Below, in pieces: positions 11,951 through 43,574 of a stretch of DNA of 64,000 bases. The first letter of the stretch is position 1, and every line of letters begins with the position of its first letter. The translations under genes and the position numbers were made by a program. The notes beneath the pieces were generated by a model that did not search any database, was not told the origin of the DNA, and saw only the letters and a program-made list of their open reading frames with translations. The DNA is taken from assembly GCF_037042905.1 (NCBI RefSeq), contig NC_087251.1, forward strand, positions 6,264,001 through 6,328,000, given 5' to 3'. This DNA comes from Lytechinus pictus. Taxonomy: Eukaryota.

Positions 11951-12020
11951 ATCATGATTTGGGGTGGGGGTACTAAAGGGGATATGGAATGGGGTGATCG
12001 CTTCTCTCATTGTTTGTACA

Positions 12021-17983: not shown

Positions 17984-18067
17984 ATGCCTTCCCAAATCAT
18001 CTCACATTGTAGATTATTGGCTCGATTTCCTGCCAGAATCATCGGTCAATCAATCTCAAACAAGATG
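17984..18067 (+). CDS. MRPL49: Mitochondrial ribosomal protein L49, exon 1 (MPSQIISHCRLLARFPARIIGQSISNKM; probable mitochondrial targeting peptide)
   Basis: ATG, 28 codons, phase-0 ATG|GTAAGT donor matching the phase-0 acceptor of exon 2. Arg/Ser-rich with no acidic residues. Removing the 24-kb insert leaves a ~1.1-kb intron. Confidence 0.75.
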
Positions 18068-18440
18068 GTAAGTGAAGTGAGTGAACGGAGTGTCGAGCAT
18101 TACCATGTCTGCGCGTGCGACTTGTTTTGAACTAATTTGCCATTGGAAGTAACACGTTTTTGTGTTATTGTCAATGGCAAATATGTACATAACAAATCGC
18201 TTGCGCGGAAATGTACATATTTGCCATTGACAAATAGTACACGTTTCTAGCCTTGAGGACTTCGTGATGATATATTTTAATATTTTGACATATACTTCTT
18301 CATCACGAGGCCTTGAACCCCCTCCCAATGACGCATAACCATGTGTTTTTGTGTTGTGATTGCGGCCTCAGCTCAGCCAAGTACGACTAGACTAGTAATA
18401 GAGTTACCAAAAGGTCGGCCGATCCACTGAGCAAAATTGC

Positions 18441-18965
18441 TGTTGTAAAAATGAGATGTTGGTTAACGATGGCACAGACACGATGCGATAAACGATGGCG
18501 AGTGGTTATTAATGACAAGTACAACACTGACAAGGATTAGGACTCACGAATACACGAGTGGGTTACCGACGGTACGAAACAGTGACAACAACTAATACTT
18601 ACCTGACTCTTGTACTGACGATGCCACACGGTAGATACAGATAACAGGTTTCTTATAAGACTTCTAATAACAGACCACGGCGCCGGGTGGGGATGCAGCT
18701 GGGTTGCGTGCGTCCACACTCGTTGGCGTCTCGGGGTCTTCTCCCTATGGTGTCTTGTCTGGATCTCTTGCACCAGCTTGTGTACGTGCTGTGCAACGCA
18801 CACACGTAGCATGCGTAGGAGCATACAAAGGCTCCTCCAATCAGGACGCTCCTCGCATGCACACAGCACACACACAGACTTAACATACATGAACATAGGT
18901 CAATACATAGACTAATACACAGACTAATACATATACATGTACAGGTACATGGCAAATTTACTACA
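18441..18965 (-). repeat. 3' LTR (525 bp)
   Basis: No difference from 25520-26044 seen by eye; imperfect terminal IR TGTTGTAAA/TTTACTACA. Confidence 0.95.
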
Positions 18966-18979
18966 TTCCTCCCGGTTCC
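18966..18979 (-). other. Polypurine tract (GGAACCGGGAGGAA on minus strand)
   Basis: Purine-rich run abutting the 3' LTR. Confidence 0.7.
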
Positions 18980-19970
18980 ATCAGATTGCGACATATATTG
19001 ACAAATCCATGAATTGGCTATATTGTGCAATCTCAATAGATATATAAACAGATATGAGGAACTCTGACAGAAGAATGTAATATATGCCTATATGATTAAA
19101 ACTGATTAAATACATAACATCAATAAAATACCTCAAATACATTGAAAATGTAATCTGAGGACATAAACTATACTAAACAACTTGTTCATTAAAAACATTG
19201 CTGGTCCAGCAAAATTAAACATATCATCACTTGAGACCAGCAAATATACACTTGGAGAAACAAGAGCAGGTTAATGGTAAGTATTAATCCGGCCATTCTG
19301 GCCCAGTCTTGTCTATGTATTGATACAAAGGTTATCTTCTCATTTAGTGCAAGTCTGAATGACTGAAAGAAGATATGTTCATCCTTCAAAGTGCACTACT
19401 TGACAAAGATTCTTAAAGTTGACTCTTGGTCAGTGCTTTATATTAAATTGTATATTGTACTATTAAAATAATGACAATGGAATAAAGCCAATTTGGCTGG
19501 AGCTCTATTACCAATTAATATAGGCCTGTACAATGTGACCTTTACAGATATGATATATAATTGGTCATATGTTTGAGCTCTTAAAAACATATAAAAATGT
19601 AAGGATAATTCAACCAGATCTGGTGCAAATAGATATAACAGCCTGGACTTGACATACATACATAGTATTTTCCCTTGAGAAAAAACTACTACTATTTCAA
19701 CATCCTGTATGACAATATTTCCAGGATTGTTTATAAAGCTTTTGCAAACAAAGTAAAAAGATCTATGGTTGAAATATCTATATCTTTATGTAGTATAAAA
19801 TATACAAATATGATAAAAAGAATTATCTATTGCATAACCAGTGTTTGCACCTATTACTTCATATGTCACCTGAAGAGGTAAAAACTATTGAAAAATAAGA
19901 GGTGTGCCTTCACCTTCAGTGACTATAAAATGAATTATAATGCCTAACAGAAATTTCAATTGCAGGACTT

Positions 19971-21515
19971 TCAGCAATCGATCAAGGAGATACTACTCCA
20001 TTCTTGGGGTGGTGGCCAGGGAGGAAGGAGCCATGGACAAGATAAATGGAATTGGCCATTACTTACACTACAGACATATTTCTGGTTCCACCAGAGGAGA
20101 GAACTGAGGAAATCAAGGATAGATAACTTAGGAGGGGTAATTCCCCAAAGTAATTGCACAAGGTAACTCTGCCCGTGCTTGGCATCCTCAGTAGAGGCTC
20201 GACTGTCCTCTGATACAGTTACAAGACTTATATTATCTACACCTATGGTATTAACTGTAACATCACTTACACATGTGGTATTGACAGTTACATCGTCTAC
20301 ACATGTGGTATTTACAGTTATATCATCTACACTTAAGATATCTACATGTTTTACTGCTAAACGTTCTGGACAGTTTCTCTTAAAGTGTCCAGACTTGTTA
20401 CATGCAAAACAAACATCACGACAAGACACCTTGGATTCAGTGTCTTCTGTCGAAGGAGAACATGTAAGCTCATTCAGGTCTTGAACAGCCGTGACCAATG
20501 CCTGGACTGTAGACTGTAAGGACTTCATCTGTGTGTCTAGAGATTGAAGGTTGTCGACCTTCTTCTCAATACTTGACAAACGGTCCTCCAGCCTGTCCAG
20601 ACGAGAGGGCAGCTGAGCATTAGAAACGCGCCCGGAAACACCCATACGGTTGATTCTGGGATCCTCCTCAACAGTATCGTACGGCATTTGTCTTGCATAC
20701 TTCTGCTTACACTGAAACAACTGAACTCTGTAAATGGCTTCCTCAAGAGTCTGCGGATGTGAATTAAGAGCATATTGTCCCGCTTCGTGGTCTAAGGAAC
20801 CCTGGCAAAATTTATAAATGATTTTCTTCCCAACAATCTCCTCAGGCTGTCCTTCAAATGCACGTGCGGCAAGAGATAAGACACAACGTGCCCAATCTAT
20901 TTCAGATTCAGTTGTAGCCTGTTTTGACGAATTGAATATCAATTCGTCTTCAGGAGTCTCCTGGGAAACATATCTTTGTTCAAACTTCTTGATCAAATTT
21001 GTATAGGAAATGTTTTGTTCACGACCAAGAACTAATGCCAGAAATTCACTTGCACTTCCCTCTAAACAGTAGCAAAACTGATTGCGCTCTTGGGCTTGAT
21101 CCCAACCATTTGTCTCAGAATACAGTTGGAATTTACATAAGAAAGACTGCCAACTCCCTCTGCCATCGAAGGTCAAGAACTTGGGCAACGAGGAAACCCC
21201 CGCACCAGAAGTACTCCCACGAGAATAAGAACTGTGGGCACCACAACCTCGATTGAAGGGGGGAGGCTTTGCACAATCATAACGGCATTTATTGGCACAT
21301 TTAAGTACAAGATCTGCTAGATGGAAATCGGATATACCATATGCCTGTGAATAATCAAACGTAGTACCAAACTCAACTACAAAATTGTCAGGATAATCTA
21401 GCTTGTATAGATTCCTTGCCAGTAAACCCTCAGTTAAGTATCTGTTTCTCGTACGAAGGTGTAAAATGTCTTCAACTAATCTTTGTTTTGCTCTAGCGAT
21501 ATCACTTTGCATCAT
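19971..21515 (-). CDS. gag: Gag-like polyprotein (~514 aa from first ATG): capsid domain, coiled coil, CCHC zinc knuckle, repetitive/hydrophobic tail
   Basis: LPKFLTFDGRGSWQSF...F...NGW...LEGSA...Q...ES capsid pattern and CFACNKSGHFKRNC knuckle. The ORF-track start at 21527 is a TTG; first ATG is at 21515. Confidence 0.88.
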   Translation of the reverse strand: MMQSDIARAKQRLVEDILHLRTRNRYLTEGLLARNLYKLDYPDNFVVEFGTTFDYSQAYGISDFHLADLVLKCANKCRYDCAKPPPFNRGCGAHSSYSRGSTSGAGVSSLPKFLTFDGRGSWQSFLCKFQLYSETNGWDQAQERNQFCYCLEGSASEFLALVLGREQNISYTNLIKKFEQRYVSQETPEDELIFNSSKQATTESEIDWARCVLSLAARAFEGQPEEIVGKKIIYKFCQGSLDHEAGQYALNSHPQTLEEAIYRVQLFQCKQKYARQMPYDTVEEDPRINRMGVSGRVSNAQLPSRLDRLEDRLSSIEKKVDNLQSLDTQMKSLQSTVQALVTAVQDLNELTCSPSTEDTESKVSCRDVCFACNKSGHFKRNCPERLAVKHVDILSVDDITVNTTCVDDVTVNTTCVSDVTVNTIGVDNISLVTVSEDSRASTEDAKHGQSYLVQLLWGITPPKLSILDFLSSLLWWNQKYVCSVSNGQFHLSCPWLLPPWPPPQEWSSISLIDC

Positions 21516-24049
21516 TATGCATTCCAAATAAATTCAGAAAAGTATTATTGATGATCACCCTGGTGATTCAAAGGCATATTCTTAAACATATTTATTAACT
21601 GTCATAAATCCAAATTCAACGATCTACAGTGTATTAAACTTAACAGAATAAAACTTGCAGATCAGTGAAAGAACTTAACTACCGGTAGGTTTGATATACT
21701 TCTTTAATCCTGTGTCACTGAATACACTTACTGCCAAGGAAAGAGTGAAGTATTGCAATACTTGTACTGCCAAGAACAAGCATCTGAATATTTGAATAAT
21801 AAATGTATGTACACACTCCTGTAGCAATGGATGTATTCAGTGAAAGTATATTTACAAATTACAGTGCAGCTTCCAGTTTCAGAAACTACACTTGTAGAAT
21901 AGAATATCAAACATCTACTACTCTGAGTAATCGCAGAAGTGTCAATAAGTTTTACTTACTCTTAGGCCCTACTTACTCTACAACTATTAAAAGAACCTAA
22001 CAAGGATTCAACTTATTGAAACCTCAACGATTACAGGAATATCATGACAATTGTCTATTCCTGATGAATACAATATATAAATGTCAAACACACATTTATC
22101 CCACATCCGATTTTTTTTTTTTTTTTTCTTTTTTTTTAGAATGGGGATAAGTCACCAATTAAAAAAATGAAGGTGAATGGTAACGAGCCTAAAAGTGACT
22201 CTGTTTTGAAATTCACTTGCGCAAAATGACAGCAGTGAATTCTGTATTTCACTGAAGGATTGAATTCTTGAGCTTTAACAGAAATTTGCAAATTTTCAGC
22301 GCAAGAATGATGCTCCAAAAATACAACAGAGCAAACCGAATGAATAAATTGATTTTTTTTTTGTATTTTTTTTTTTTTTTAAAGAATGTTGATATCAAAC
22401 ATTGATTCTGATATCAAAGATTGATAGTATCTGTACTTTCACTTAAAATCAGAGTAAAGAGTTGGTTTGATTAAAAATAAGTATCTTCAAGAGCCTTATT
22501 AAAATTTAATTCAGTACTTCTTGTACCTTCAGTGAGATCTATCTCTCCTTAAAATCTAGAAGTTAAATTTACAAGCAAGAATTATTCCAAAGAAAAATTC
22601 CTGATCTAACAATGCTTGATAGAATTAATCAACTAAGAAAACCTAAATTTCAAACAGACAGAAAGACAATCCAGGATAACCTCCAAGAAAAATTTCCTAC
22701 AAAGAACTAAGGGCCTGAAATTAAATTCCAAGTCCTCGTTCAAACAAGTTAACACCGAGTCAAAAGGCAAAGCAAAACAATTGCACTTGTTGGCTCCAGG
22801 TATACACTGTCAGGAAACTACAAACACCTGAGAGATTAAACAAGATTATCGGCTGCAAAGATCCTTAAAAATCCTAAGTAATAATGGGATTTGATATAAA
22901 ATTAAGACAATTGAATTTTTCTAACCTGGACTAAATTAAGTATTTTAGCGTTAGGGTTAGAAATTGAACTTCCAAGATTTTTAGTAATCAGGACAAGTGC
23001 TTATTTACTGATCCACTAAGTAAATTAAAGATCCAAAAAGACTAACGTTAATTTTAACCTCTATATTGTTAACGTTAAATCTGAAGGTAAGCTCATAAGA
23101 TTAATTAAATAAATTCTTTTGAGTTTCCAGTAAGACACGAACTGACTGTATCTCAAAGATACAAAACTGCAAAGTGCTACTGCACGTACCTCACAGGTAA
23201 TATAAACTCGAGGTACCGGTACGGTACACCATACAAATCTAACGTTGAGGCCCAAGCTTGGGGAGTTAAATTTAACAAACACGAAATATGGCAGTATGAA
23301 ATCAATGAATTTAGCTCAGTTCGCGTAAACATTAAGTCAAGAGACAATTGGCAGCTAAATCCAGCAAATTATCATTAAAAATTGACGAAATGAAAACTCG
23401 TTCAGAATCAGCCTCCACGAAGCTGCGACGATAGCCGGCTCGTGAACGTTATCCCTGCCTGGAGCTACGGGCCAGATAGAGAGGTGCGTTGCGCTGGGGT
23501 TGGTTTGGAAACTGCGCGACGTTAGACCTAAAATTAACTAATAAAGAATGATCAAATTACAAAAACAACTTCTACGAGTTCCTGCTTGGAACTACTCTTT
23601 AGAATAAATCAACGTTCAATCGCGATAATCGTATAAAATCAGAGTTTAGCAACTTCTAACTCTGATCGACTGTGTTTTATACGAGAGTCTCGATCAAGTG
23701 AAAAAAATATACAAGTCACGTGATTCGGCTCAGCAGTCTTTCGCCGAGCGAGCTAGGCGAAGGTAGATTGTCAATTTTTGGTCAAAACAATCTTATTACT
23801 TTTTGACTTGCAAATCAATGAAAATCAAAATAAGCACTTATATTTATAAATAGTGATGATTCAATTTACTTCGAATCAAACGACATATAAACATGTAAAC
23901 ATGAAGAACATAGAGAACAATTTATCTAGATTATCAAGAAATTAATAGCCTACCGGTTTCTCTGCAAACTACACAATTTCAAAAAATTATGGAGCCTACA
24001 CCCAACCAGCCCAAACTACCAATTATTTGATATGGAAGATAAAATTATT

Positions 24050-24240
24050 CAGACTTCTCTTTCCCAGTCCCAACGGGTCTGACACTGGTATTGACAAAAG
24101 TCTATTCACACAAATATTTCAGACTTCTCTTTTTCCAGTCCCAACGGGTCTGACACTGGAATTATTATACAGAAGACGTCTTATCACACAAATAATTCAG
24201 ACGTCTATTTTCTCCAGTCCCAACGGGTCACACTGGAATT
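24050..24240. repeat. Three copies of a ~70-80-bp unit (CAGACTTCTCTTT.CCAGTCCCAACGGGTCTGACACTGG) in the LTR element leader
   Basis: Core motif recurs near 24050, 24120 and 24198. Confidence 0.8.
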
Positions 24241-25501
24241 ATTTATAGAAGTCTATTATATTCACACACAAATCTACCGAGTGGGTGAACAATTAGCAAC
24301 AATGAGTAACAATAACTTTTAGATTGAATTTAAGACAATGACAATCACAGTTATTAAAGAGAAACAATCACAATATCAGATGTGATGAATGAAATGCTTT
24401 AAAGAAAATTCACAAGATGTGTATTGATTAAGAACAAAATTCAAGAGTATATTTTCAAGTTACAGGTAAGATCCGAAGCTCAGAAAACCCACCTATTTTC
24501 TAGTAACAGGTAAGATCTGAAATTCAGAAAAACCCACCTCTAACGTACCACCGACACAAGTGTAATTTCGAGCTGGGTAAAAATTTGAAGTAAATTCAGA
24601 CTATTACTCAACTCGGCAACCAGGAGTATTAGAACTTCTAACACTCTTTCTGCCACTCAATGTGTACAGAACTGGCTGTAAAAAACACTTGCCGAATGTC
24701 GATAGAAAATATATACTGGAAATTTTATAGAAATATATGAACAGCAACTCTACGCCCTCAAAATATTGGTGCACTGCCCGATATGCAAGAGTATGAAATT
24801 CTAGGAAACTTATACCATCTGGAATAATTACTGAGGATCGAGAGAAAATTTCAAGTTCAAATTAACTTTTCCAATCCAATAAATCCACCAAATACTCACA
24901 CCCGACTTTTTTTTTTTTTGGAAGTGGTGTGGTGTGAATGTTCCGAATTCGGAAGAAATCTTTAAAGACAATGGCGGACTAAAAATATCCAAGCCTAGAT
25001 GCAGATTTCAAAAGAATTCACAAACAAAAGCAACAAGATGGTAAGCGACGCAAAAATATGCAAGGAACGAAATTCCCCGCGACGGCGAGCCAAACAATAG
25101 AAGAGACTCGCGAAGAATGCGATAAAAAATGCAAGTGCAACTAAACAATGTAGGGCGTGTGCACAGAGAATACCACGTGCGTTGCAATAAAAATGAACGT
25201 AGTGGACATGAAATTCCCTAGATATGGCAAATATATATCAAAATCCACTTGTAACAAACAAGAAATTATATCATGTACGGAAAAATGGTAGAACTAAAAC
25301 AAGGTGTGTGCGAGATGCATGCGAATCCACGCAATCACGGCACGCAAATTTCCAATTCTCGGTAGAGCGGAAAACTTCTCACTCACTCTCCGTTCGTTGT
25401 ACTCTTCAAAATCACTCACAAATGACTTTCATGAGCAAATATGAAGTATGAACGGACATGAAATGATGAAAATAAATATGACAGGCGCACAGGACGATCC
25501 G

Positions 25502-25518
25502 AAAACTCGCAATCGCCA
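25502..25518 (-). other. Primer-binding-site-like sequence (TGGCGATTGCGAG...)
   Basis: TGG starts 1 nt after the 5' LTR, complementary to a tRNA CCA end; cognate tRNA not identified. Confidence 0.55.
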
Positions 25519-25519
25519 A

Positions 25520-26044
25520 TGTTGTAAAAATGAGATGTTGGTTAACGATGGCACAGACACGATGCGATAAACGATGGCGAGTGGTTATTAATGACAAGTA
25601 CAACACTGACAAGGATTAGGACTCACGAATACACGAGTGGGTTACCGACGGTACGAAACAGTGACAACAACTAATACTTACCTGACTCTTGTACTGACGA
25701 TGCCACACGGTAGATACAGATAACAGGTTTCTTATAAGACTTCTAATAACAGACCACGGCGCCGGGTGGGGATGCAGCTGGGTTGCGTGCGTCCACACTC
25801 GTTGGCGTCTCGGGGTCTTCTCCCTATGGTGTCTTGTCTGGATCTCTTGCACCAGCTTGTGTACGTGCTGTGCAACGCACACACGTAGCATGCGTAGGAG
25901 CATACAAAGGCTCCTCCAATCAGGACGCTCCTCGCATGCACACAGCACACACACAGACTTAACATACATGAACATAGGTCAATACATAGACTAATACACA
26001 GACTAATACATATACATGTACAGGTACATGGCAAATTTACTACA
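25520..26044 (-). repeat. 5' LTR (525 bp)
   Basis: Direct repeat of 18441-18965; the ORF track gives an identical 119-aa translation in both copies. Confidence 0.95.
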
Positions 26045-26827
26045 TTGCTATGGGCAAATGAAAAGTCAATTGCAAGTGCGTAAACAGTGTGCATTGCCAC
26101 CATCGTCTGTTCTCGACGGCAAAAATGAGCATTGAAATGCTTTTCCTCAGCAAATTAGTTCATCTTAGTGAAAAAAATTAGGCCCTGTGTTTTTTATATT
26201 TAAATTTACTTATGTGGGATGAAGTGTCTTACCTTCATGTGGTATCGAAAGTGACGTTTGGAGGTTAAATCCACGAGAAATCCACAGAGTTTCGTCGCGT
26301 GTATTCGCTATGGAGAAAAATGCGTGCGATCGCATGCGTTATTGCAAGCTCGAGACGGCGCTGTTGAACTTGGTCTGGAAATTCATAAAAAATAAACAAA
26401 AATCCTTGAGTAGGCTCACAATAAAATCATAAAAAATATGCTTTATGGCTAAAACGGTAGTTCTCTTGCCCACACATATCATACTTGTTGTTGCGTAAGA
26501 AATCCTTTTTTCATGATAAAAATATAGCAATAAATGTTTTAAAAATTATGTTTTCCATATGGAATATGTTTGAAACATCTATATTAGAAGAAAAATGTGT
26601 TTTTTTAATGAATTCAAACTAAAATGAAGTTTATACATGCCTGTACTTTTTCATACTACTCAAAAAACTAAATGGGCCGTCAATCAACGTTGGTTACCTC
26701 GGCAAGTAGGCGTGGTCTATCGTGAAGTTCGCTGGTGACGTACCTTTCTCGCTAGACTTTACTCAGCCGCCGAATTTAATTCATTCTCCGCGCACGTGCA
26801 ACTGCAACTTATTATCGTCACTGCACT

Positions 26828-27302
26828 GCTGGTGTTTGCCGCATTGAGGACAGATGAAACAATTCAGATAGAGTTGCGCGTGTACAATGAGTGAAACAGC
26901 GCGATCGTTTCATGATCGAATGTGACAGTGTGCCTGTCGAGATAAAATTCATATGTCATGTTATTTTCTATCGTGTTTTATGCAACTGCAATTGATTTGT
27001 TATATAATTTTTTCTTTGATATTTCCTGTATATGTATGTATGAATTTTATTTGAAGTGAATGAATCATGCTGGTGTCCTTGCCATTGAGGACAGATGAAG
27101 ATGAAACAACACTGATAGAGTTGTGCGTGTACAAGGAGTGAAACAGCGCGATTGTTTTATGATCGAATGAACAGTGTGCCTGTCGAGATAAAATTTATCT
27201 GTCATGTTATTTTCTATGATGTTTTATACAACTGCAATTAATTTTTTAAAATTATTTTCTGTGATATTTTCCTGTTAATGTATGAATTTTATTTGAAGTG
27301 AA
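26828..27302. repeat. Tandem duplication of a ~240-bp unit
   Basis: GCTGGTGT...CATTGAGGACAGATGAA...GAATTTTATTTGAAGTGAA occurs twice. Confidence 0.8.
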
Positions 27303-28329
27303 TTATTATAAAGATTAATCCAAAACAAACCTAAATAATTGTCGGCTTCATTGTATTCGTGATGAACAAGTTAAGGTATCAAAAAATTATGCTAATTTTT
27401 TTTATTTGAATGACTTTAAGTAAATTGGAATTGAAAAGGACGTTTAGTGTTTCCTGTTCAGTGCAATTTTTGTTTTCTTTTTTTCATTTCACATTCTCGG
27501 GATGCGAACCTCCACTATAATTATAATTAATGAATACCATTATAAACAAAAATATTTGAAAAATAAAGACTCGCAAAAATTTTAATACTAGTGCAACGGT
27601 GATTTTTTTTATTTTGTTGTTTCATTTACTGGAAGGTACGACAGACAAATACCCGGTGTAGATCAAAATTTTGCTAATGGGGGGGGGGGGACTACAATTT
27701 TTCTCCCCGATCTGCGCCGTAAAAAAAAAAAAAAAAAAAAATTCGCACCGCCAGCCAGTAGGAGGGGTTGCCGCCGCCCATAATTGGGTCCGGCACCTGG
27801 ATCTGCCTATAGAATGGATGAGGAATAAGGAAAGGGGAGACAAATAAAGGTCCCCCCTCCCGTAATATATCAAATATTTGTTAGTGGATTTTGTCGTTCA
27901 TTCTCAAGTGAGGACTTATTTTTCAACTTTTCCAAGGAATTTTGTGTATGGAATGATTTTTTCCTAGCATACTAGGTCTTGAATGCCCCCACTTTGGAAA
28001 ATCCTGGATCAGCCCCTGTCAAAGTGTATATAGATGAAACTAAACTTGAATAGGGCTCCACATGAATGATTTTCAAAATTTAGCCATTTCCTATTTTCCC
28101 CGTTTAACACTGTGAGGTGAATAATTCAAATGCTTTCACCATCGCTACCATAGAAGGATCCAGGGGGCGGTCACCCCCCCCCCCCCCTGTTGGCGGATTA
28201 AAGACCAAAAAATTGAGAAAGGAAGAAGAAACAGAAGGAAAAGAGAGTGGAAAAGGAAGAGGGGAAAAGGGAGGGAGAAAAGTGAATAAAATTAGGGAGG
28301 GGAGACTTTGATGATTTAAAAGAACATGC

Positions 28330-31300: not shown

Positions 31301-32290
31301 AAATTGTCCTTTCTGTTTCATCTCGCTCTTAGCAAGAGGAATAGGAAGATATTCATCACTTTCATGTCCCGGTCCTTTGTCAAATATATCAGCTCTTTAT
31401 TAAGTGCGATCCAAATCCACCTCACAAAGAACTTGAGCTGAAATTGACCCCTTTTTCAGATCAGAATGTCAAATATTTTAAGGTCGCGCTTCGCGCTCGC
31501 TTTGATTTTCAATTTCATGTTAAAATATATATTCAGAATGCCTAGATTGTAGGCCTAAATCGGAAACACGCGAGCGCATGTCTATCTAGATACTCAACTT
31601 GTTAGTATTTCAACCATTATCCAGTTTCTGAAAAACAAAATTCTGCTAGCGCTTTGTGCTTGCATTTTTTATGTAGGAAGAACCCCTATTACTCATCCTT
31701 ATTATACAAAACAGGAATAGAGTGTCCCATTTTTTAGGTCTAAATGTCAATTTTTTTCCGCTCGCGCTTCGCGCTCGCATTAATTGTTTTATAACGACGA
31801 TCCTGTTCATGGTCACAATAATTGATTAAAATTGTCCATTCTTTATGTAGAAGTGTAAAAAAAAAAATCGGCTCGCGCTTGCATTATTTTATTGTTGAAA
31901 TATGTAACGTCTCCATGGCTAAGTGAAATAAGCACTCCTTAACAGGTACCTTTTTGATCAGTTCAAAACGTATACAAAAATCTTATGCTCGCGCTAATTT
32001 GCGCGAGCATTATTAAAGTAACAAAGATCGGCAATTTGACATCCTTTCCATGATGATTTAAAAGACATGACTAGACATGTCTCGTTTTTAGGTCTAAATC
32101 TTCCAATTTTGTGCTCGCGCTTCGCATCAATTGCTAATTGCAAAGTGCCTATGATTTCAATTCTGTTCGCACTTCGCGTTCTTAGTAATTATTTAGTTGC
32201 ATACACATCTTTTTCATGATAAACATTGCCCAGAAATTTCAAACTTTGGGGAAAAAACATATTTTTTAAAATAAATTAGCTCGCACTATA
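28330..32290. repeat. Degenerate tandem array of ~65-80-bp units centred on GCTCGCGCTTCGCGCTCGCATT
   Basis: Motif recurs dozens of times; also at 5220-5800 (inverted), 35500-36420 and 37190-38080. Confidence 0.75.
28504..28659. mobile_element. Small MITE
   Basis: TIR TTATACCTCGGTCACA / TGTGACCGAGGTATAA. Confidence 0.6.
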
Positions 32291-33409
32291 TAAAAAGGGT
32301 TATGATATTATATATTTATGTTGATTTATAAGACAAAAGCTAAGAAGTGACATTTCTTCAAAGAAGGCCGATTGGGGAAAAATAATGGTGAAAAAAAATT
32401 TGCCCCCCCCCCCCTTTGGCGAAAGCTGGATCCACCCCTTCATCCTATTTATTTCTCTCCTTCCGTCCATCTCTCCATTCTTCCAGGAGCCGCGGAATAG
32501 TTTTGAAAAATGTTTTTTCAAAACTTTTTTTTTTGTATTTCTACCAATAAATTAATGAAAATAATGCGGTACAAAAATCAATGTCATTCTTCTTCCTGTT
32601 TTAAACTATATACGTGTACAAAAAACGCACCACCAGCTAAAAAAAAACAAAAAAAACTTGGGGGTCACAACCCGAGCACCCCACTTCCCAGGGCCATATA
32701 CAAGGATTCTAATTTATTAATTTTAACGAAAGCATGAGACATCATTTGTTGAAAAAAAATTAAAGAGAGCTATTAATGACTGCATGTGGTCCTACCGGTA
32801 CGCTAGATCTGCGCACAAAACTGCTTTCATATGACACGCAAAAGGGATAAATCTTCGTGGAAAAGTGGGATAAAGCAAACAGGATTTAGAAACTGCCTTC
32901 GTTGGCGTTCAATAATATGGGTGGTATGATACAAATTCTGCTAGCTTATTCGTACTATTATTTTTGGCCATTGTACTTAGATCTATATTTTAATGTGGAA
33001 ACATTTTTAAATTTTTTTTATGATACAAATCGAGCGAGGCAAGTACAATGATATGGGGCAGAGTTCCAAGTCTTCATGCCCCAGACTGAATATATTTTGA
33101 CATCAACTTACTCCAAAAACAAGTGTTATGTTTTATTTTGTATTATTCATTTTTTAAGTATAAGGTAAAATTATAAGTCTCGGAGTGTCAGTTAATGCTG
33201 CAAAAGATGTATAAGGCCTACTCTTTTGCAGCACTATCCAGCTACCGCGGCGAGGACGCCCTCCGAGAAGGTAGCCATATCAAAACTAAAAACAAAAAAT
33301 TCCACTTAGATTACTGGTGGATCCAAGGGGCATAATTATCGAGAGCCAAATTTGTAATTTGTAACATAAACATGCCCTTTTTACCCAAGCATGCCCCTTG
33401 AAAGTGAGG

Positions 33410-33441
<32 letters not shown>

Positions 33442-34627
33442 TATATAGGCCCTATTTTTTTTGCTTGTCAATTTTTAGGGACGAAATGACTTTGAATTTT
33501 TGGTAAAAACATTTTGTAATGCTTATCAAATTTGCATCGGGAAAATGTGCCCTCCATAGGCCCTGTCCCCCCTAAATCTGAGGTTGGGACCATTGGCAAC
33601 GGAAAGCAAAAATTTAGGGGAGGGGGACCACCAAAATTTTGTGACAAGCCCCCCCCCCCCCAAAAAAAAAGGTTTATCAACCAAATTTTAGGGGAGACCC
33701 CATGAAATTTTTAGGGGGGTCCACTGAAATTTAGGGGGCACGCAGGAAAAAAAATTGACAAGCAAAAAAAAAAGGTTATCGACAAAAAAATTAGGAGGGG
33801 GGGGGGCGATTGTCCCCCACCTCAAATTTAGGGGAGACACGACCCCCCCCCCGCTGCCTATGGGGGGACGTTGTTACCTTTTTTGGGGGCTAAATTTTTT
33901 TTTTTCGGTCCCCCTTTGATAACCTTTTTTTGTCAAAAATTTTGGTGCCCCCCCCTAAATTTTTTTGATTGCCGCCGCTAATAGTGCCCTCCCCCCTTTG
34001 GAAAATCCTGGACCCTCCCTTGCCTAGATATAGATGTTTAAAGAATTTATTATTTTGAAAGTCAGTGCCCCCGCCCCCCATGCTTTAGTTATCATGGCAT
34101 AAAACTTATGTCATATCTAATCCTTATATCAGCAAGAGGTCAGAGCATACTATCCGTCACCAAACGACTGCATTTGAGCCATTTTTTTTTCTCTTTTCTC
34201 TTCTTTCTATTTTTTGTTGTTATTTAATCATTGTTTATTTGGATAAGCTCGGATCCGAGACTAACTGGGACGGTGAACGCACTTTCGTTCGAGTTGTGTA
34301 TTTGGGTAACAATAGGCCGAGGCGAGAAAGGACACGCCCACAATCCCTCGTTCAGTGCCGAGCTCTGTGCATACGTGTCGACGAAATTTCAAAATGAAAT
34401 TTGTACACAAATCTGTCACAATTCGGACCCACTTTAGCCTCAGATTAACAGATATTTAGATCTCTTTGGAACACTAAAAGTCATTCACTTGGGGTTTTTT
34501 AATATGCTGATTCAGGTGAGGTACTTTTCAATGCTTTTAAACATAGATTTAAAAAATTAGATTTTCGTTTTGGGATCCCTACTAGTAATACTAATTATAC
34601 TAATAGTATACTCTGTAAAGAGGACTG

Positions 34628-37600
34628 TATGAAGCCCCAAACCGGACATTTTTTACAACGAAAAAAAAAAAATTATTACGTACGTACGTGGTATTATTAC
34701 GTACGTACGTAGTATTATTACGTACGTACGTAGTAATTATTACGTACGTACGTGGTATTAATACGTACGTACGTAGTATTATTACGTACGTACGTAGTAA
34801 TTATTACGTATGTACGTGATATTATTACGTACGTACGTAGTATTATTACGTACGTACGTAGTAATTATTACGTACGTACGTAGTATTTATTACGTACGTA
34901 CGTAGTATTATTACGTACGTACGTAGTATTTATTACGTACGCACGTAATAAGCACCTCGCCAAACCTGTCGAGGAACCTGTATATAGAGTTTGGATTAAT
35001 ATATGGATGTCAAATTTTTCCATTCATTTATTTCGATTTCCCCGCCTTTTGAGGGCTTTTGTGACTCCGGGGTGTGATTACATATTCACATTACAGCACA
35101 TTGAATGATCGCTATGTGAGTTTGCTGGGCAATATGGGGAGAGCGGGGGCGGGGCCGGGTCACCTCTCCCACGTGTGATCGAGCTTCGTAGTCAGTTTAA
35201 TGGCGTGGCAATTTAAGAATCAAAATTAACTATATTGTACGGTCAAAGAAACATCGTCATAAAAATCCACTGGGGCCAGCATAGGCAGATCCAGGTGGTA
35301 AAGGAGCCGCCCCTAGCTCCCCCATTGGCGACGCGAAAAAAGGGGGAAAGAAAGAAAAAAAAGGAAAGGAGGGAAGGGAAAGGAAAGGATTTTAAAAAGA
35401 GGCAAATAAGAATAGGGAGCTAGACGAGTGAATGAAAATAAGGTGAGGGGAAAACTTTGAAAATAAAAAAATCTTGATCATGCAGCTACAGTATATAACA
35501 TTTTTGCTCTTGCTCCGCGCTCTCGTTGCCTGTTATGAGATAGGCCTACATATATCTTGCTCAACAGGCTGAAATGGAGATAAACAAAACATATCCAGCT
35601 CGGACATCGAGCTTTTATTTATTTTGTGTAATTTACTAATTGATTTTTAAGTGCTCTGTATTTTTTTTTTAATGCATGGTCTGCATCTCAAAATATCTCA
35701 GCTCGAGCTTCGCCCTCGCGCATTATTCATGTGGGAAAATAACCATCCTTTTCATGAAAATATGACTAGAGTATATAGGCCTATCCTATTTCGGGATTTA
35801 AATTTCAAACTTTGCGCTCGCATCAATCTGCCTATATCATGTTCATAATTATAAAAAAAAAGGTGCTTAGAAATGTCCAGTTTTTAGGTCCGAATATCAA
35901 TTTTTTTCATTTTTTTTCTCGGGCACTTTAATCTTTAAAAGGGCACCGACAAAAGTTTAAGATTTAGATAGCAGTATAACTAAACAATTTATTGATGCGA
36001 GCGGAAAAAGTTTGAGATCGAGATCTAAAAACTGAATATTTTATTTTTAATTATGAAAAGGATGGTTATCTTCCTTTATGAATAATGCGAGCGCGAAGGA
36101 ATACAAATAATGCAACTAAACAATAATTGATGCGGCGAGCGCAAAGCACGAGCGGAAAAAGTGTGAGATTTAAGAAAACGGGATATTCTATTTTGTTACT
36201 ATATATTTTTTTAACCTAGTTTTTAATTTAATGACAGGCCGAATGAGAACGCGAAATTTTGGAATTCATACAGAAGTATTCTCACTAACCAAAACACGAG
36301 CTCGCAGTGCTAGTTGATATTTTTTTTACAATAAGACCTGAACAAAAGACCATCTTGAGAACTTTATGGAATACACAAAGAAGGACCTAGTTCACGTTTC
36401 AAATAATGCGAGTGCATATCAGACAAAATAATGAATGCTCTATGTCCGAAATGGAATATGTTTGTGTACTGACTTAAAATTGAATATTTTAAGCTCCATA
36501 TCAACCTTTATAAATTGACATGAAAGATTACTTTTTCAAAGTCTTCGACCGCCCCCCTCATTTTATTCACTCGTGACCCGTCTTCATATTTTCTTTTTAC
36601 CCTCTCCTTTCCTTTTTTTTTTCTTTTTGAGTCCCGAAGTTTTCTTATTGCGCCGCCAATAGGGGGAAGGGGGGGGGGCGCTGTCCTTTTCTCTTGGATC
36701 CGCCTTTGCTGACCCCTGCACTTAAAAAAAAATCTTTTAGGATGTTGGTGATAATAGCAATGTTTCTATGAACGTACATTATGCTAATTTTTATGTTCTT
36801 GTTACTCCACAAACTGACTTAGCTCGATCACATAATGTATAAATATTATAATGCCAACACTATTATGGGAGGGGTGACCCCCCCTTAAGTGTCCAGCAGA
36901 TCTATAGTCACAAAAGGTGTGGAAATCGAAAGTATAGTCAAAATCTATAGTCCGACTGTCATTGATCTGTTAAGATTACAGGTTCGACGAGGTGCTTATT
37001 ACGTACGTACGTAATAAATACTACGTACGTACGTATTAATACTACGTACGTACGTGATAATATTACGTACGTACGTAATAATACTACGTACGTACGTGAT
37101 AATACTACGTACGTACGTAATAAATACTACGTACGTACGTAATAATTAAATACTGAATAAATCCCTTTTGTTCAGGTCTGATTGCAAAAATATATCAGCT
37201 AGCACTACGCGCTCGCATTTTGGTTGGTGAGAATACTTCTGTATGAATTCCAAAATTTCGCGTTCTCATTTGGCCTATTATTAAATGAAAAAAAAAATCC
37301 TTTTTATGAATTCATAATCCTTATTGTCTCTTTTTTTAGATCGGAATATCAACAATATTTTCAGCTCGCCCTTAGGTAGAGGAACTAATAATAGTTATCC
37401 TTTTCATATGATGACAAAATGTGCTTAGAATGTCCCGTTTATAGGTTAAATAAATATAGTAACAAAATAGAGTATCCCGTTTTCTTAAATCTCACACTTT
37501 TTCCGCTCGTGCTTTGCGCTCGCCGCATCAATTATTGTTTAGTTGCATATTTTGTATTCCTTCGCGCTCGCATTATTCATAAAGGAAGATAACTATCCTT

Positions 37601-38926
37601 TTCATAATTAAAAATATAATATTCAGTTTTTAGATCTCGATCTCAAACTTTTTCCGCTCGCATCAATAAATTGTTTAGTTATACTGCTATCGAATCTTAA
37701 ACTTTTGTCGGTGCCCTTTTAAAGATTAAAGTGCCCGAAAAAAAGCAAAAAATTGATATTCGGACATAAAAACTGGACATTCTCAGCACTTTTAAAAAAT
37801 AATTATGATCACGATATAGGCAGATTGATGCGTGCGCAAAGTTTGAAATTTCAATCCCAAAATAGAATAGGCTTATATTCTCTAGTCGTATTTTCATGAA
37901 AAGGATATATTTTCCCACATGAATAATGCGCGAGGGCGAAGCTCGAGCTGAGATATTTCGAGATGCAGACCATTAACAAAATACAGAGCACTTAAAAATG
38001 AATTTGTAAATTACACAAAATAAATAAATCTCGATGTCTGAGCTGAATATGTTTTGTTTATCTCCATTTCAGCCTGTTGAGGAAGATATGTAGGCCTATC
38101 TCATAACAGGCAACGAGAGCGCGGAGCAAGAGCAAAAAAATTATATACTATGTAGCTGCATGATCAAGATTTTTTTATTTTCAAAGTTTTCCCCTCACCT
38201 TATTTTCATTCACTCGTCTCCCTATTGTTATTTGCCTCTTTCCTTTCCCTTCCCTCTCCTTTTTTTTTTCTTTCCCCCTCTTTTTGCGTCGCCAATGGAG
38301 GAGGGGCGGCCCCTTTACCACGTAGTGGATCTGCCTATGCTGGCCCCTGGATTTTTATGACGATGTTTCTTTGACCGTACAATATAGTTAATTTTGATTC
38401 TTGCCACGCCACAAACTGACTACAAAGCTCGATCACACGTGGGAGAGGTGACCCCCGCCCCCCGCTCCCCATATCGTCCAGCAAACTCACATAGCGATCA
38501 TTCAATGTGCTGTAATGTGAATATGTAGTCACACCCAGGAGTCACAAAAGGCGGGGAAATCGAAATAAATGAATGGAAAAATTTGACATCCATATATTAA
38601 TCCAAACTCTATATACAGGTTCCTCGACAGGTTTGGCGAGGTGCTTATTACGTACGTACGTAATAAATACTACGTACGTACGTAATAATACTACGTACGT
38701 ACGTAATAAATACTACGTACGTACGTAATAATTACTACGTACGTACGTAATAATACTACGTACGTACGTAATAATACTACGTACGTACGTAATAATACCA
38801 CGTACGTACGTAATAATTACTACGTACGTACGTAATAATACTACGTACGTACGTAATAATACCACGTACGTACGTAATAATATTTTTTTTTTTCGTTGTC
38901 AAAAATGTCCGGTTTGGGGCTTCGTA
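34628..38926. mobile_element. IS3EU-like non-autonomous foldback DNA transposon, 4,299 bp, ~1.7-kb inverted arms, subterminal (TACG)n arrays
   Basis: Ends TATGAAGCCCCAAACCGGACATTTTT / AAAAATGTCCGGTTTGGGGCTTCGTA (TAY...RTA). 6-bp TSD GGACTG (34622-34627, 38927-38932). 34628-~36350 mirrors ~37165-38926. Confidence 0.8.
34672..34950. repeat. Minisatellite, 21-23-bp unit TATTATTACGTACGTACGTAG; related arrays at ~36996-37146 and ~38645-38880
   Basis: Directly visible tandem array with a palindromic ACGTACGTACGT core. Confidence 0.95.
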
Positions 38927-38951
38927 GGACTGTACTCAACAACAGAAGAAG

Positions 38952-41381
38952 TAACCCAGCGGGCCGGAGCCCAGGGGGCTTACCGTGTTATTCACCATAC
39001 CTACGGTAGTACTAGTACTAGTAGCGTGAAGTATGGTCTAAACAATTATTCGAATAAATAGTTAAAACAGAAATTAAGCACTTGCCACGATTATATGGAT
39101 GAAGGTCTAACGAGTGGCAGCTTCCTCACTCGTCATCCCCGACCATTTGCCATACAGCAAAAGGTAGGGGATGGGACTAGTGGTATGTGAGCCGTACTCA
39201 TAGACAAAATTTGTTCTAAAAAATGTAAAAGTAAGACTAAGAGAGTTTGACTTACCAGTCTTTCCCCCCGAACCAAACGTTGATCTTCCTTCCGTTGTTG
39301 CTGTGATTTATCTTGGACTCAACGATATATTGTAATTTCTTTTAAGACTCTTCGGGAAATTGTCGGAATGTATGATGAAATTTGTCATGATCCTCAGCAG
39401 CGCATAGACTTCTACGTAGAGGATGTAATGCGCCCTCTTGTGCTCAATTAAAGAAAGCTAACGGAATCGACCACACCACTGACCTCTACAGAGCTGTATA
39501 AAAATGCTTCTCACCACAGATACCTGTTTCCGGTGATGCTTCTATTTCGGATCTCCGAGATCCAGCGATAGTAGTCTCTTTCTCCCCTGACACACAATAT
39601 TTTTTTAAATTATTTTATACACAAGAATGATTGTTGTAGCACCATCAGCTTAGTTTATTCTATAATGAACTGTATCTTGTCGTATGGTGAAAGGAAATAT
39701 GATGCCTTTTTTTTTGGGGGGGGGAGGGTTATTGCTTCTTCTCTCGATCCCCCGATCCCTCTCTTTTTGTTGAGTGCTATCATTGTAAGGGTTAATTAAT
39801 TATTAATATTATCATTTTGGTTTTCTATTATTTTTCATATTGTTGTGGAATATTCTTTTTCATCATCATATCACTTTTGTAAGCCCACATTTTGTACCGT
39901 CCTGGAATTAAAGGGTGAAATGTGAAAAGAATGAAAGGGGCAAGGAACTCAAGACAAAGTGATAAAACAGAACATAATTACTTTCCAATTTTTTTTAATG
40001 AGTTTCTTTTATTTATCCAGGATGGGGAGCACATCAGGCTCGTGCCCACCCCCTCGAAAGCCATAAAACAGATTTATTTTGCATTCATTTTGTTTGATAA
40101 TTTGTATAAATTGTTAATTTCATTTTATTGTAATCCTTTATGTTTGGATTTAAATCAATTAAATTAACTTGAAACTTCCCCGCCCTCCCCCTTGAAAATT
40201 TTGATCTGCCCCTAAATAGGCCTTTGTGGTAAGAGATTTTTTATTTTATTTTTTTTAATGAAAATCCTTTAGGATTGGATTTTAAATCAATGAAAACAAA
40301 CTTGAAACATCATACTGTATAGCGAGGAGCTTTTATCATAATTGTGATATTATTCGTTACATAAATCTCCTTCACGGGGGGGGGGGGGGGGGGGCTTGTT
40401 AATTTTTTCTGTAAAAGAAACCACCCCTCCCCCTTTGGAAAATCCTGGATTCTCCCCTGATTAGACCCACAGTAAAGTTTGTTATTCTGAACTTCTGTTA
40501 CATTAAAAATTGCAAATTTGTCTTGATTGAGGCTATCAAGACTTCCTTACCAGAATGCATTACGAGCAATGTTTCGTCGAAACCTCAATGGTCAGTGGTC
40601 CAAACGGGTTGATGAGCCTCTATGGTTTTGTGAGATCTTTTTTTCTTTTCGATTTGTCACTGTCAAACACCATAGACGTAATGGAGGCAGTTGGATGAGG
40701 TTCACGTAGAGAAATCGGTGAGTTTTTGTTCAATTTGTTACATTATAGTGCTTTATTTGATGGCCTTCCCGTCAAAATAACAACTTTAATCATATACTTA
40801 TTAAAGAATGCATTGATTCGCGATGCTTTAGGCAAGGGATGGGGGGGGGGAAATGAGAAATGTATATTTTAACAACAGAGAGGTATACAGCCGAGAACAA
40901 GGTTATATTATTACCTCCTTCGTAGGATGAGTGGCTTCCTGACATCGAGGCACAGACTGGAACCTCAAAAAACGAAAAGTTCTGTCGCGGTAGCTCTCCT
41001 TCTTTCAGAATTCATAGCAAAATGGCCGTTCGAGACCGGTACCGAGGGTGTAGGGCGCATGCGCGAATTTGACAAAGTCTATATGCGCTAGTGCTATAGC
41101 CTCGGTCTCGATCGGCCATTTTGTTTTGAATTCTGAAAGAAGGAGAGCTACCGCAACAGAACTTTTCGTTTTTTGAGGTTCCAGTCTGTGCCTCGATGTC
41201 AGGAAGCTGCCACTCGTTAGACCTTCATCCATATAATCGTGGTAAGTGCTTAATTTCTGTTATAACTATTTATTCGAATAATTATTTAGACCATACTTCA
41301 CGCTACTACCGTGGGTATGGTGAATTACACGGTAAGCCCCTGGGCTCCAGACCGCACAGCGGGCCGGAGCTCCCTGGGTTA
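38952..41381. mobile_element. Non-autonomous DNA transposon, 2,430 bp, long TIRs, 9-bp TSD (AcademH/MULE-like); ~1.8 kb of unrelated sequence interrupts the left arm
   Basis: Ends TAACCCAG / CTGGGTTA; CAGAAGAAG on both flanks (38943-38951, 41382-41390). Left arm 38952-39126 plus 40925-41038 mirrors 41103-41381. Confidence 0.82.
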
Positions 41382-41390
41382 CAGAAGAAG

Positions 41391-42295
41391 AAGCGAGACC
41401 TATGCACCCGGATGGATTTCCCTAGGAAATCCATAGGAAATCCATAGTGATAGTTAGAAATAAAGTTAGAGGGTGAAATCTGTTCGTACGGGTGAATTTT
41501 ATTTATCTATGAACCTTCATACGCCTACTGCGTATAAAGGGATAGAAATTATTTCACTTTTAATGGCAAAAATGAGAGGTTTCTTACCAGACCGATCTCG
41601 TGTAGATCCCTCAATCTGTTTGTCAACAAAGCAAAAGCAAATACGATAGGCCTGACCCTTGAACTGCTTCGTTATGACGTACCTTCGATTTGCGATGTTA
41701 CAAAATGCTGTTTGAAGAACAATTTATAGATAAAAGATATTATTTAACAAATACTAAAATTTAATACGTGATTATAAATAATTATTATAATACTAATAAT
41801 TATTTATCACATATTAAATTTTAGTATTTGTTAAATTAAAATTTTTTATTTTTAAGATATACCTTTTTCCTCAATAATTAATATCCCTTTTTATCTTGAA
41901 TATTGTAGTAATTATTGCAGATGTTAAATTATTATTCATACATTGTAGGCGCTATGGTTTAGCCCCTCTAAATATCCATTATTATTATTATCTATAAATT
42001 GTTCATCAAAACGGTATTTTGTAACATCGCTAATCGAAGGTACGTCATAACGAAGCGGTTCAAGGGTCAAGCCTATTGTATTTGCTTTGTTGACAAACGG
42101 ATCGAGGGATCTACACGAGATCGGTCTGGTAAGAAACCTCTCATTTTTGCCATTTATAGTGAAATAATTTTTATCCCTTTATACGCATTGGGCGTATGAA
42201 GGTTCATAGATAAATAAAATTCACCCGTACAAAACGATTTCACCCTCTTACTATGGATTTCCTAGGAAATCCATCCGGGTGTGTAGGTCTCGCTT
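41391..42295. mobile_element. Foldback/MITE with ~300-340-bp inverted arms and an AT-rich inner palindrome
   Basis: AAGCGAGACCTA...GGATGGATTTCC mirrored by GGAAATCCATCCGGG...TAGGTCTCGCTT; inner IR ~41740-41835; no TSD seen. Confidence 0.75.
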
Positions 42296-43345
42296 ATGCG
42301 TCTATGGGAGGGGGTTCAAGGCTTCGTGATGAAGAAGTATATGTCAAAATATTAGAAAATATCGCGAAGTCCTCAAGGCTAACACGTTTCTGTGTCTGAT
42401 ATGGATAATGAAAAAGAGAAGAAAAAAATGAAATTAATGATAATCGTTGAAGAAAAGAAAAGGAAAGAATGATAATTGGGCGCTAATACAGTTTCGAACC
42501 AGCCGACATCTGACTTTGTCTTCGACTCTTTCGAGCTGACAATATGACATTTTTTTGTAGTGACCTATTATTACCGTGATAAAAACAAAAACAACAAATC
42601 CAAGTGTTATAGACATAGCGTAGCACTGCACTGTCCACCCTAGACCAGGCCAGCAGCTCCTCCATTTTGCCTTCCCCATTGTCCACCCTGCAAAGAAAAG
42701 GTAGGCCTACACTAAATGTCATTGGAACGCTGCTGTAGAGCTAGAATGTGAGCAGAAAATAAAATATATTTGCCTGAAAATGTTTTATTAAAACCAGCTA
42801 CAGATGTGGAAGAAAGAAGGAAGTGACTTTGTGCTTGTGAAGTGTGCAGCATGAATTCAAGAACCCGCCCAGCACAAAATAACAGCATTAACAGTATAGC
42901 CTATATTTTGCAAAATGAAACTGATATATATCAGTTGGAGATTGAGTGAAAGATTCCTCAATGGAAAAGATGTTAAGTTTTAGATATGTTTCAGGGGCGG
43001 ATCCAGGATTTTTTCAAAGGGGGGGGGCACATTTTCTGAGGAAATATTAGATAAGCAAAAAAGAAAAAGAAAAGTTTTCAAACAAAATTTAAGGACATTT
43101 CGTCCTCGAAAAAGTTTGACAAGCAAACAAAAAAAAAGGGGGACACACTTCAATTATAACAGCATATTTACATTAAGAAATTTAATTGTGCCTCTCAAAA
43201 GGGAGGGGGGCATGGGCCGACTTTGCCCCCCCCCCCCTGGGTCCGCCAGTGATATATTTGATTTGGTTTGATTTTTAGCAGCAATTGTTAATACCTGTAA
43301 GTAGGATTACATCTCTCTTTCTTGTATTGTCTAAATCAAATGCAG

Positions 43346-43574
43346 GTTCGAGAGAGTAGAACTCTGCACACTTCTATGTGTCGAGCAGATAGGAATTATT
43401 ACTACATACCTACCTATCCCAAAGATGATCCAGTGCGAGATGAACCAAGGACAGAGCTCATTGAATCAAAGGAAGATTTTAAATTTGTAGAAAGATTACT
43501 TCCTTCAATGCAGATCCCTGCTGTTCCCAATCATTCACAATATCCTACTCCTTCAGGCTGGTCACCACCATCAG
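43346..43574 (+). CDS. MRPL49: MRPL49 exon 2 (VRESRTLHTSMCR...FKFVERLLPSMQIPAVPNHSQYPTPSGWSPPS)
   Basis: TGCAG acceptor and G|GTAATC donor; FVERLLP...YPTPSGW.PP is the MRPL49 signature. Confidence 0.93.

What the first reader, a model, noticed from the sequence alone, without database searches (positions are those of the whole stretch)
18239..42390. A 24-kb nested transposon stack makes up ~95% of MRPL49 intron 1
Seen: ~90-bp inverted repeats 24,134 bp apart (TAG...CTA termini), flanked by an exact 9-bp direct repeat ACACGTTTC. Deleting the unit plus one TSD shrinks the intron from 25,278 to 1,135 nt. Inside are at least four nested elements, three with their own TSDs (LTR element 4 bp, IS3EU-like 6 bp, 38952-41381 9 bp), plus MITE arrays. 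Known: 9-bp TSDs typify MULE and AcademH DNA transposons. Inference: either a small element became a landing pad for serial insertions, or the whole cargo-laden unit is or was mobile. No transposase ORF is visible.
Basis: partly seen in the sequence, partly recalled or inferred. Interest (0 to 1): 0.75.

Follow-up and report, generated by a model that had tools for sequence, protein, structure and literature searches.

The report
Nested transposon pile in urchin intron
A small hairpin-shaped jumping element near the start of a sea-urchin housekeeping gene appears to have been hit by five later jumping elements, swelling from about 1.2 to 24 thousand bases; this is mostly an ordinary nest, notable only because several insertions landed within about 60 bases of each other.

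Summary
A 24,134-bp unit (18248-42381, TAG…CTA ends, exact 9-bp target duplication) fills 95.5% of MRPL49 intron 1. The 18067→43346 junction is supported by homology of exon 1 (start codon at 17984, not 18065) and indirectly by a spliced transcript contig.

The "90-bp inverted repeat" is only the outer tip of ~400-bp arms. The host is a ~1.2-kb foldback MITE (A) whose left arm is split at base 91. Five later elements account for the rest exactly:
- B' (16.2 kb, newly delimited), containing a gag-only LTR element with identical LTRs
- D (IS3EU-like)
- E (AcademH-like, 616 bp), itself split by F (7-bp duplication, new)

No transposase was found. A and E ends are deeply covered by a related species' DNA contigs. 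Insertion one after another at this site is the best reading. Whole-unit mobility is unlikely but untested, because no empty allele was seen.

One oddity: the B', D and E cuts lie within 57 bp. With the LTR cut, they would all have been 480-537 bp from the transcript start if they arrived in distal-to-proximal order. That suggests a promoter-anchored landing window (inferred). Verdict: new member of a known kind, low to moderate interest.

The parts
17984..18067 (+). MRPL49 exon 1, coding part (28 codons, phase-0 donor GTAAGT); 5' end inferred near 17920
   Evidence: tblastn of S. purpuratus MRPL49 residues 1-32 hits 17984-18076, E 3.5e-5; a transcript contig carries 147 unplaced nt before 43345
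18068..43345 (+). MRPL49 intron 1, 25,278 nt, GT-AG
   Evidence: joined CDS is 194 aa without internal stop, 159 identities to P0001
18239..18247 (+). left 9-bp TSD of host element A (ACACGTTTC)
18248..18338 (.). A left arm, outer 91 bp (TAG terminus)
   Evidence: 82 of 88 aligned bases match the right arm
18339..18399 (.). segment Z, first part (Z is 120 bp in all, absent from the right arm; target of B', D and E)
18400..34580 (.). element B' (8,573 bp without the LTR element). Bounded by direct repeat ACTAGTAATA and an imperfect 14-bp inverted repeat (11 of 14). TSD is 7-9 bp depending on where the ends are set; superfamily unassigned
   Evidence: a shared 10-mer or longer arose in 29 of 2,971 and 62 of 2,977 random window pairs
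18441..26044 (-). non-autonomous gag-only LTR retrotransposon; LTRs 18441-18965 and 25520-26044, 0 of 525 differences, TG..CA, TSD TTGC
19974..21533 (-). Gag-like open frame, 520 codons stop to stop, CCHC knuckle; no pol frame found in the element
   Evidence: Pfam zf-CCHC above cut-off; Atlas neighbours carry PNMA/Retrotrans_gag, score 0.92-0.94
34590..34627 (.). segment Z, second part, ending in D's left TSD GGACTG (34622-34627)
34628..38926 (.). element D, IS3EU-like foldback, TA..TA ends, 6-bp TSD, arms about 1.6 kb with (TACG)-type arrays
   Evidence: arms 1,150 of 1,198 identical outside the arrays
38933..38951 (.). segment Z, third part, ending in E's left TSD CAGAAGAAG (38943-38951)
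38952..41381 (.). element E, TAA..TTA ends, 9-bp TSD; a 616-bp foldback MITE once F is removed; unequal short and long ends
   Evidence: another copy of its long end at 10828-11056
39127..40933 (.). element F, 1,807 bp, CAC..GTG ends (9 of 12 match), 7-bp TSD GCTTCCT; splits E's left arm
   Evidence: much lower contig depth than E's arms in organism B
41393..41742 (.). A left arm, inner 350 bp
   Evidence: 291 of 312 aligned bases match the right arm; 41391-42296 folds as one hairpin, z -54
41980..42381 (.). A right arm, intact, about 400 bp (CTA terminus)
42382..42390 (+). right 9-bp TSD of A
43346..43574 (+). MRPL49 exon 2
   Evidence: 88% identity to S. purpuratus MRPL49; RNA reads and contig
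44358..44482 (+). MRPL49 exon 3
   Evidence: Pfam Img2, E 1.5e-11
45000..45146 (+). MRPL49 exon 4, coding part to the stop
   Evidence: Pfam Img2, E 5.4e-9

Best explanation
A non-autonomous foldback DNA transposon (A, about 1.2 kb, ~400-bp arms, 9-bp TSD, AcademH- or MuDR-type) inserted 180 bp into MRPL49 intron 1. Its left arm carries a 120-bp extra segment (Z). Three unrelated non-autonomous DNA elements (E, D, B') later inserted into Z one at a time at this site. A gag-only LTR retrotransposon then inserted 41 bp inside B', and F split E's arm, either here or before E arrived. Each was moved in trans by its own family's enzyme. The result is spliced out and tolerated. Shown: boundaries, duplications, nesting, exon structure, no transposase. 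Inferred: insertion at this site, the order A, then E/D, then B', then LTR, and neutrality.
For: Exact length accounting. The split arm rejoins at a single point with a 2-base overlap. Every inner element has its own flanking duplication. Removing the unit restores a local repeat shared with 18137-18167: alignment score 48 against 35 for the filled site. In organism B DNA contigs, A's arms lie at summed depth 9,585-33,489 and E's ends at 20,365-137,463, against 48-82 on exons 2-3, so they behave as separate dispersed families (the tool warns this is no copy number). Arm divergence: A 27/401, E 11/253, D 48/1198, LTRs 0/525; A versus D p=0.03. Precedent: maize Ds1 elements reach 24 kb through nested LTR insertions (PMC3260210 section 13).
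Against: No empty or partly filled allele was seen: none of the 24 listed contig pieces, 15 listed joints or 24 listed loose ends shows one, and 35,996, 359 and 3,419 further rows were not shown. Z has no TSD and no homologue in the window, so its origin is unexplained. B' is only moderately supported: short imperfect inverted repeat, low-complexity flanks, about 1-2% chance for the direct repeat alone. Arm divergence is a weak clock; A versus E p=0.23 and E versus D p=0.73.
Confidence: 0.75

Rival explanations
1. The host is a ~300-bp MITE (91-bp TIR + Z + 88-bp TIR). The 900-bp inner hairpin 41393-42293 is a sixth, separate insertion that landed exactly against the right TIR.
For: It explains Z as the element's normal interior and the clustering as insertion into its only non-TIR part. 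Two listed organism B contigs end at 42296-42297, the outer/inner boundary.
Against: The inner hairpin has no flanking duplication. It would need an insertion at the exact TIR boundary. Outer and inner arms are equally diverged, 6/88 and 21/312. Other listed contigs end elsewhere (42212, 42266), and contig ends arise at any variant.
Confidence: 0.12
2. The whole 24-kb (or 16.5-kb pre-LTR) unit was assembled elsewhere and moved here as one cargo-laden transposon using A's intact tips.
For: Both termini and the TSD are perfect. A rice MULE kept transposing after a 274-bp MITE entered it (PMC3903597 passages).
Against: The left tip is cut off from 350 bp of its arm. A's arms are the most diverged and the LTRs identical. 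No gene cargo or transposase. The cited precedent is a hundred times smaller.
Confidence: 0.07
3. The stack is partly an assembly artefact, with repeats mis-joined into the intron.
For: The region is almost all repeats, and no read or contig spanning a junction was seen.
Against: Six separate flanking duplications close correctly and the split arms of A and E rejoin to the base. Mis-joins would not produce this.
Confidence: 0.03

Closest known systems
Maize Ds1/Ds2 elements enlarged by nested insertions (Du et al. 2011, PMC3260210; abstract and section 13 read)
   Same: A small non-autonomous TIR element swollen to as much as 24 kb by later LTR and DNA elements, with ends and TSD intact.
   Different: Ds is hAT with 11-bp TIRs and an 8-bp TSD. 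Here the host is a foldback with ~400-bp arms and a 9-bp TSD, most inserts are DNA elements, and three cut within 57 bp.
AcademH non-autonomous elements (9-10-bp TSD, as stated in PMC10045372, passages read; the primary paper is not held)
   Same: 9-bp TSD for A and E. TA..TA ends fit my recollection of Academ termini (recalled, from no call).
   Different: No transposase or helicase is present to confirm. MuDR also makes 4-10-bp TSDs (same paper).
IS3EU/GingerRoot (PMC10045372, passages read)
   Same: D has TA..TA termini and a 6-bp TSD, as described for complete IS3EU families.
   Different: D is non-coding and almost entirely foldback.
Promoter-biased transposon insertion in Drosophila (PMC10018349, passages read including part of the abstract)
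   Same: Several transposon classes favour promoters and open chromatin de novo, and selection then depletes some of them.
   Different: That work is on single insertions, not an age-ordered stack at a fixed distance inside intron 1.
Gag-only (TR-GAG) non-autonomous LTR retrotransposons (search listing only)
   Same: LTRs, TSD and a gag frame without pol.
   Different: The listed papers concern plants; this one is in a sea urchin and has about 4 kb of non-coding leader.

Membership tests
AcademH (elements A, E) | 9-10-bp TSD | tested here: met
   exact 9-bp duplications; criterion from PMC10045372
AcademH (elements A, E) | Academ transposase and helicase in the element or in an autonomous partner with the same ends | not testable with these tools
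   no coding frame in A or E; no genome held
AcademH (elements A, E) | first 11 terminal bases match a known family (Repbase rule, PMC4455052 passages) | not testable with these tools
   no repeat library available
MuDR/MULE (element A) | long TIRs and a TSD within 4-10 bp | tested here: met
   about 400-bp arms, 9-bp TSD; does not separate MuDR from AcademH
Pack-MULE-type cargo carrier (whole unit) | captured host gene fragments between the TIRs | tested here: not met
   only the Gag knuckle among 128 frames of 55 aa or more; 0 Rfam matches in 17500-46500; shorter fragments not tested
Pack-MULE-type cargo carrier (whole unit) | copies of the whole unit at other loci | not testable with these tools
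   the read lay is limited to 20 kb and covered 38890-46250 only
IS3EU/GingerRoot (element D) | TA..TA termini, 6-bp TSD | tested here: met
   criterion
IS3EU/GingerRoot (element D) | IS3-type DDE transposase | tested here: not met
   no Pfam family above cut-off in D's frames; expected for a non-autonomous copy
Ty3/Gypsy-type LTR retrotransposon | TG..CA LTRs, 4-6-bp TSD, polypurine tract, gag | tested here: met
   primer-binding site starts TGG but was not matched to a tRNA
Ty3/Gypsy-type LTR retrotransposon | pol (protease, RT, RNase H, integrase) | tested here: not met
   none among the frames scanned; non-autonomous, so the Gypsy assignment rests on Gag likeness only
MRPL49 (mL49) host gene | Img2 domain and full-length orthology | tested here: met

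The most novel reading that the evidence does not exclude
The landing site is set by distance from the promoter, not by sequence. Open germline chromatin and selection against insertions nearer exon 1 leave a narrow permitted window about 480-540 bp downstream of the MRPL49 start. Elements of at least three unrelated kinds entered that window in turn (E +537, D +518, B' +480, LTR element +521), each pushing the older ones away. This builds an age-ordered stack with the youngest nearest the promoter. The youngest insert fits: the LTR element sits 41 bp inside B' rather than in Z (about 1% if uniform over B' ends). If general, first introns in this genome grow like a conveyor belt. Two paper searches listed nothing describing this, but they were narrow and judged from titles and abstract starts. 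The pattern was noticed after the fact, at one locus, and needs an assumed insertion order.
Probability: 0.3. Interest if true: 0.55.

Novelty: new member of a known kind. Interest (0 to 1): 0.3.

Why it matters
As described, it is a clean worked example of how a ~1-kb intron of an essential gene becomes 25 kb through nested, non-coding transposons while splicing stays intact. It also shows that large TIR-bounded units in this genome need not be cargo carriers. It would matter more if the promoter-anchored window is real: that gives a testable rule for where new insertions are both possible and tolerated, and makes first-intron stacks readable as time series of transposon activity.

Tried and rejected
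- No whole genome is held, so no genome-wide TIR survey was possible.
- A-terminus pattern: 0 matches in metagenome contigs. An inner-arm 19-mer gave 4 metagenome loci and 0 viral loci; all 4 match only the 19-mer and are chance.
- Run search: no RNA holder listed as such; 20 of 23 rows held part of 42391-46200, none half of its words.
- Read lay (4 of the 23 runs): intron depth in the raw RNA run was 0-0.4 at 43564-44301, too low to see alleles. No empty-site record was among the rows shown.
- Alternative first exons rejected. 11089-11106 ends in T and 42700 ends in AG; neither fits the contig alignment starting at 43345 with no differences, and neither is homologous. 42480-42700 behaves as a repeat.
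- Helitron or captured unique genomic DNA for the 23-kb interior rejected once B', D and E accounted for all but 120 bp.
- No tRNA gene in the window and no Rfam match. The PDB search of Gag gave only weak knuckle matches.
- Earlier-finding look-ups by sequence, nearby place and words returned nothing.
- PMC5753468 and PMC10799480 (passages) gave no terminal signatures. No supplements were read; the AcademH paper's terminal alignments, which I could not see, bear on the family assignment.

Full report
Observation. The 9-mer ACACGTTTC occurs twice in the 64-kb window, at 18239-18247 and 42382-42390, directly outside inverted termini TAG...CTA. The unit is 24,134 bp in an intron of 25,278 nt; 1,135 nt remain after removing it and one duplication, so it makes up 95.5%. 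Random 9-mer pairs match in 41 of 1,996,856 draws. Removing the unit also restores a local repeat: the joined flanks align to 18137-18167 with score 48, against 35 for the filled site.

Host gene. Exon 2 is 88% identical to S. purpuratus MRPL49; 9 of 18 candidates passed E 0.001. Exons 3 and 4 carry Pfam Img2. The N-terminus of the S. purpuratus protein matches 17984-18076 (E 3.5e-5), so exon 1 encodes 28 residues ending at the donor 18067. The four exons give 194 aa with 159 identities to that protein. A contig from organism A (run X6, record 19) aligns without differences from 43345 at its base 148 and from 44999 at its base 502, exactly the spacing for spliced exons 2-4. Its first 147 bases were not shown, so the exon 1 link from RNA is indirect: the last upstream base must be G and the one before it not A, which fits 18067. 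It would put the 5' end at 17920 (inference). The organism is a sea urchin by this homology; the species was not established.

The host element is small. The 90-bp repeat is the tip of a longer arm. 18248-18338 followed by 41393-41742 aligns along its whole length with 41980-42381 (374 of 401 aligned bases), and 41391-42296 folds as one hairpin (z -54). Element A is thus a foldback of 1,080 bp, or 1,200 bp with a 120-bp segment Z that interrupts the left arm at base 91 with a 2-base overlap and no duplication.

Nested elements. B' (18400-34580) is bounded by the direct repeat ACTAGTAATA and an imperfect inverted repeat, 11 of 14. A shared word that long arose in 29 of 2,971 and 62 of 2,977 random comparisons, so B' is probable, not certain. 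Inside it, 41 bp from its tip, lies an LTR element (18441-26044, minus strand, TSD TTGC, LTRs 0 of 525 different) with one Gag-like frame and no pol. D (34628-38926) has TA..TA ends and the 6-bp duplication GGACTG, as described for IS3EU (PMC10045372 passages). E (38952-41381) has a 9-bp duplication. It is a 616-bp foldback whose left arm is split by F (39127-40933, CAC..GTG, 7-bp duplication). The lengths add up exactly to 24,134. Of 128 stop-to-stop frames of 55 aa or more inside the unit, 1 reached a Pfam cut-off (the Gag knuckle); three weaker hits (FliD_N, TDBD, DUF7144) and a second knuckle model fell below theirs.

Outside evidence. No genome is held. I laid 4 of 23 listed runs on 38890-46250. 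In two DNA runs of a related organism B, summed contig depth was 48-82 on exons 2-3, 9,585-33,489 on A's arms, 20,365-137,463 on E's ends and 268-13,559 inside F. The tool warns this is no copy number, but it marks A, E and F as separate repeat families of different abundance. No empty allele was among the 24 pieces, 15 joints and 24 loose ends shown; 35,996, 359 and 3,419 rows were not shown. Presence or absence in other individuals remains open. Metagenome and viral scans gave nothing real.

Mechanism. Shown: borders, duplications, nesting, no transposase. Inferred: A inserted first, 328 bp from the inferred transcript start. E, D and B' then inserted into Z, and the LTR element last. Arm mismatch is A 27/401, E 11/253, D 48/1198, LTRs 0/525; only A versus D differs (p 0.03), and foldback arms are a weak clock. 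Each element would need its own family's enzyme in trans (established knowledge of non-autonomous elements). The closest precedent is maize Ds1 swollen to 24 kb by nested LTR elements (PMC3260210, abstract and section 13). Rivals are a 300-bp host with the inner hairpin as a further insertion (0.12), whole-unit transposition (0.07) and mis-assembly (0.03).

The one oddity. The B', D and E cuts span 57 bp of 1,200 (P about 0.007 if uniform, post hoc). Measured from 17920 they lie at +480, +518 and +537, and the LTR cut at +521 although it is in different sequence. If the order was E, D, B', LTR, all four hit one 57-bp window. Promoter-biased insertion followed by selection is documented in Drosophila (PMC10018349 passages). 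An age-ordered stack at a fixed distance did not appear in two searches (listings only). Against it: the order is assumed, E and D ages are indistinguishable, F would fall at +712, and a sequence preference for Z or for element tips explains the data about as well. Unchecked notes on this genome describe motif-guided stacking and other swollen elements, which suggests nests are common here; they are leads only.

Classification and verdict. A and E meet the 9-bp criterion of AcademH (PMC10045372 passage; the primary paper was not held), but MuDR overlaps and no enzyme is available to decide. The whole unit fails the cargo-carrier test as far as testable. This is a real, well-formed nest of non-autonomous transposons in intron 1 of MRPL49: a new member of a known kind, interest 0.3.

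Noticed in passing
window 18441-26044: Gag-only LTR retrotransposon with identical 525-bp LTRs, about 4 kb of non-coding leader and no pol frame; very young and antisense to the host gene.
   Followed up: partly
window 38952-39010 and 41320-41381: E has a short left end and a long right end, differing by about 19 bp just inside the terminal 7 bases; the copy at 10828-11056 has the long type.
   Followed up: partly
window 10828-11112 and 11486-11493: An E-family right end lies about 30 bp upstream of an ATG-bearing mini-exon with a GTAAGT donor (11089-11106); a second E-like terminus and a minus-strand donor-like site (about 11600) are nearby. Gene unidentified; rejected as MRPL49 exon 1.
   Followed up: partly
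window 42992-43251: hAT-like 260-bp MITE (CAG..CTG-type ends, 8-bp duplication with 1 mismatch) in the remainder of intron 1, with many loose contig ends at 42992; the 1,135-nt 'empty' intron is itself partly repeats.
   Followed up: partly
window 42480-42700: Promoter-looking segment that behaves as a dispersed repeat in organism B DNA; the 10 RNA reads at 42658 all differ from the window.
   Followed up: partly
window 18104-18233: Imperfect palindrome and local direct repeat immediately left of the TSD, including a near-copy of the target 9-mer at 18152.
   Followed up: partly
window 36533-37148: The loop of D holds an older, degenerate copy of part of D's own right arm, including a (TACG)-type array.
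   Followed up: no
window 62728-63490: Kinase-like exons, weak Pfam kinase hits below cut-off; resembles SCYL1 (name recalled, not tested).
   Followed up: no
window 6749-7675 and 46301-47262: Two copies of one 192-bp-unit repeat element in opposite orientation, 95% alike, flanking the MRPL49 locus 38.6 kb apart.
   Followed up: no
window 44575-44740: SINE-like repeat in intron 3 with very high read depth in all four runs.
   Followed up: no
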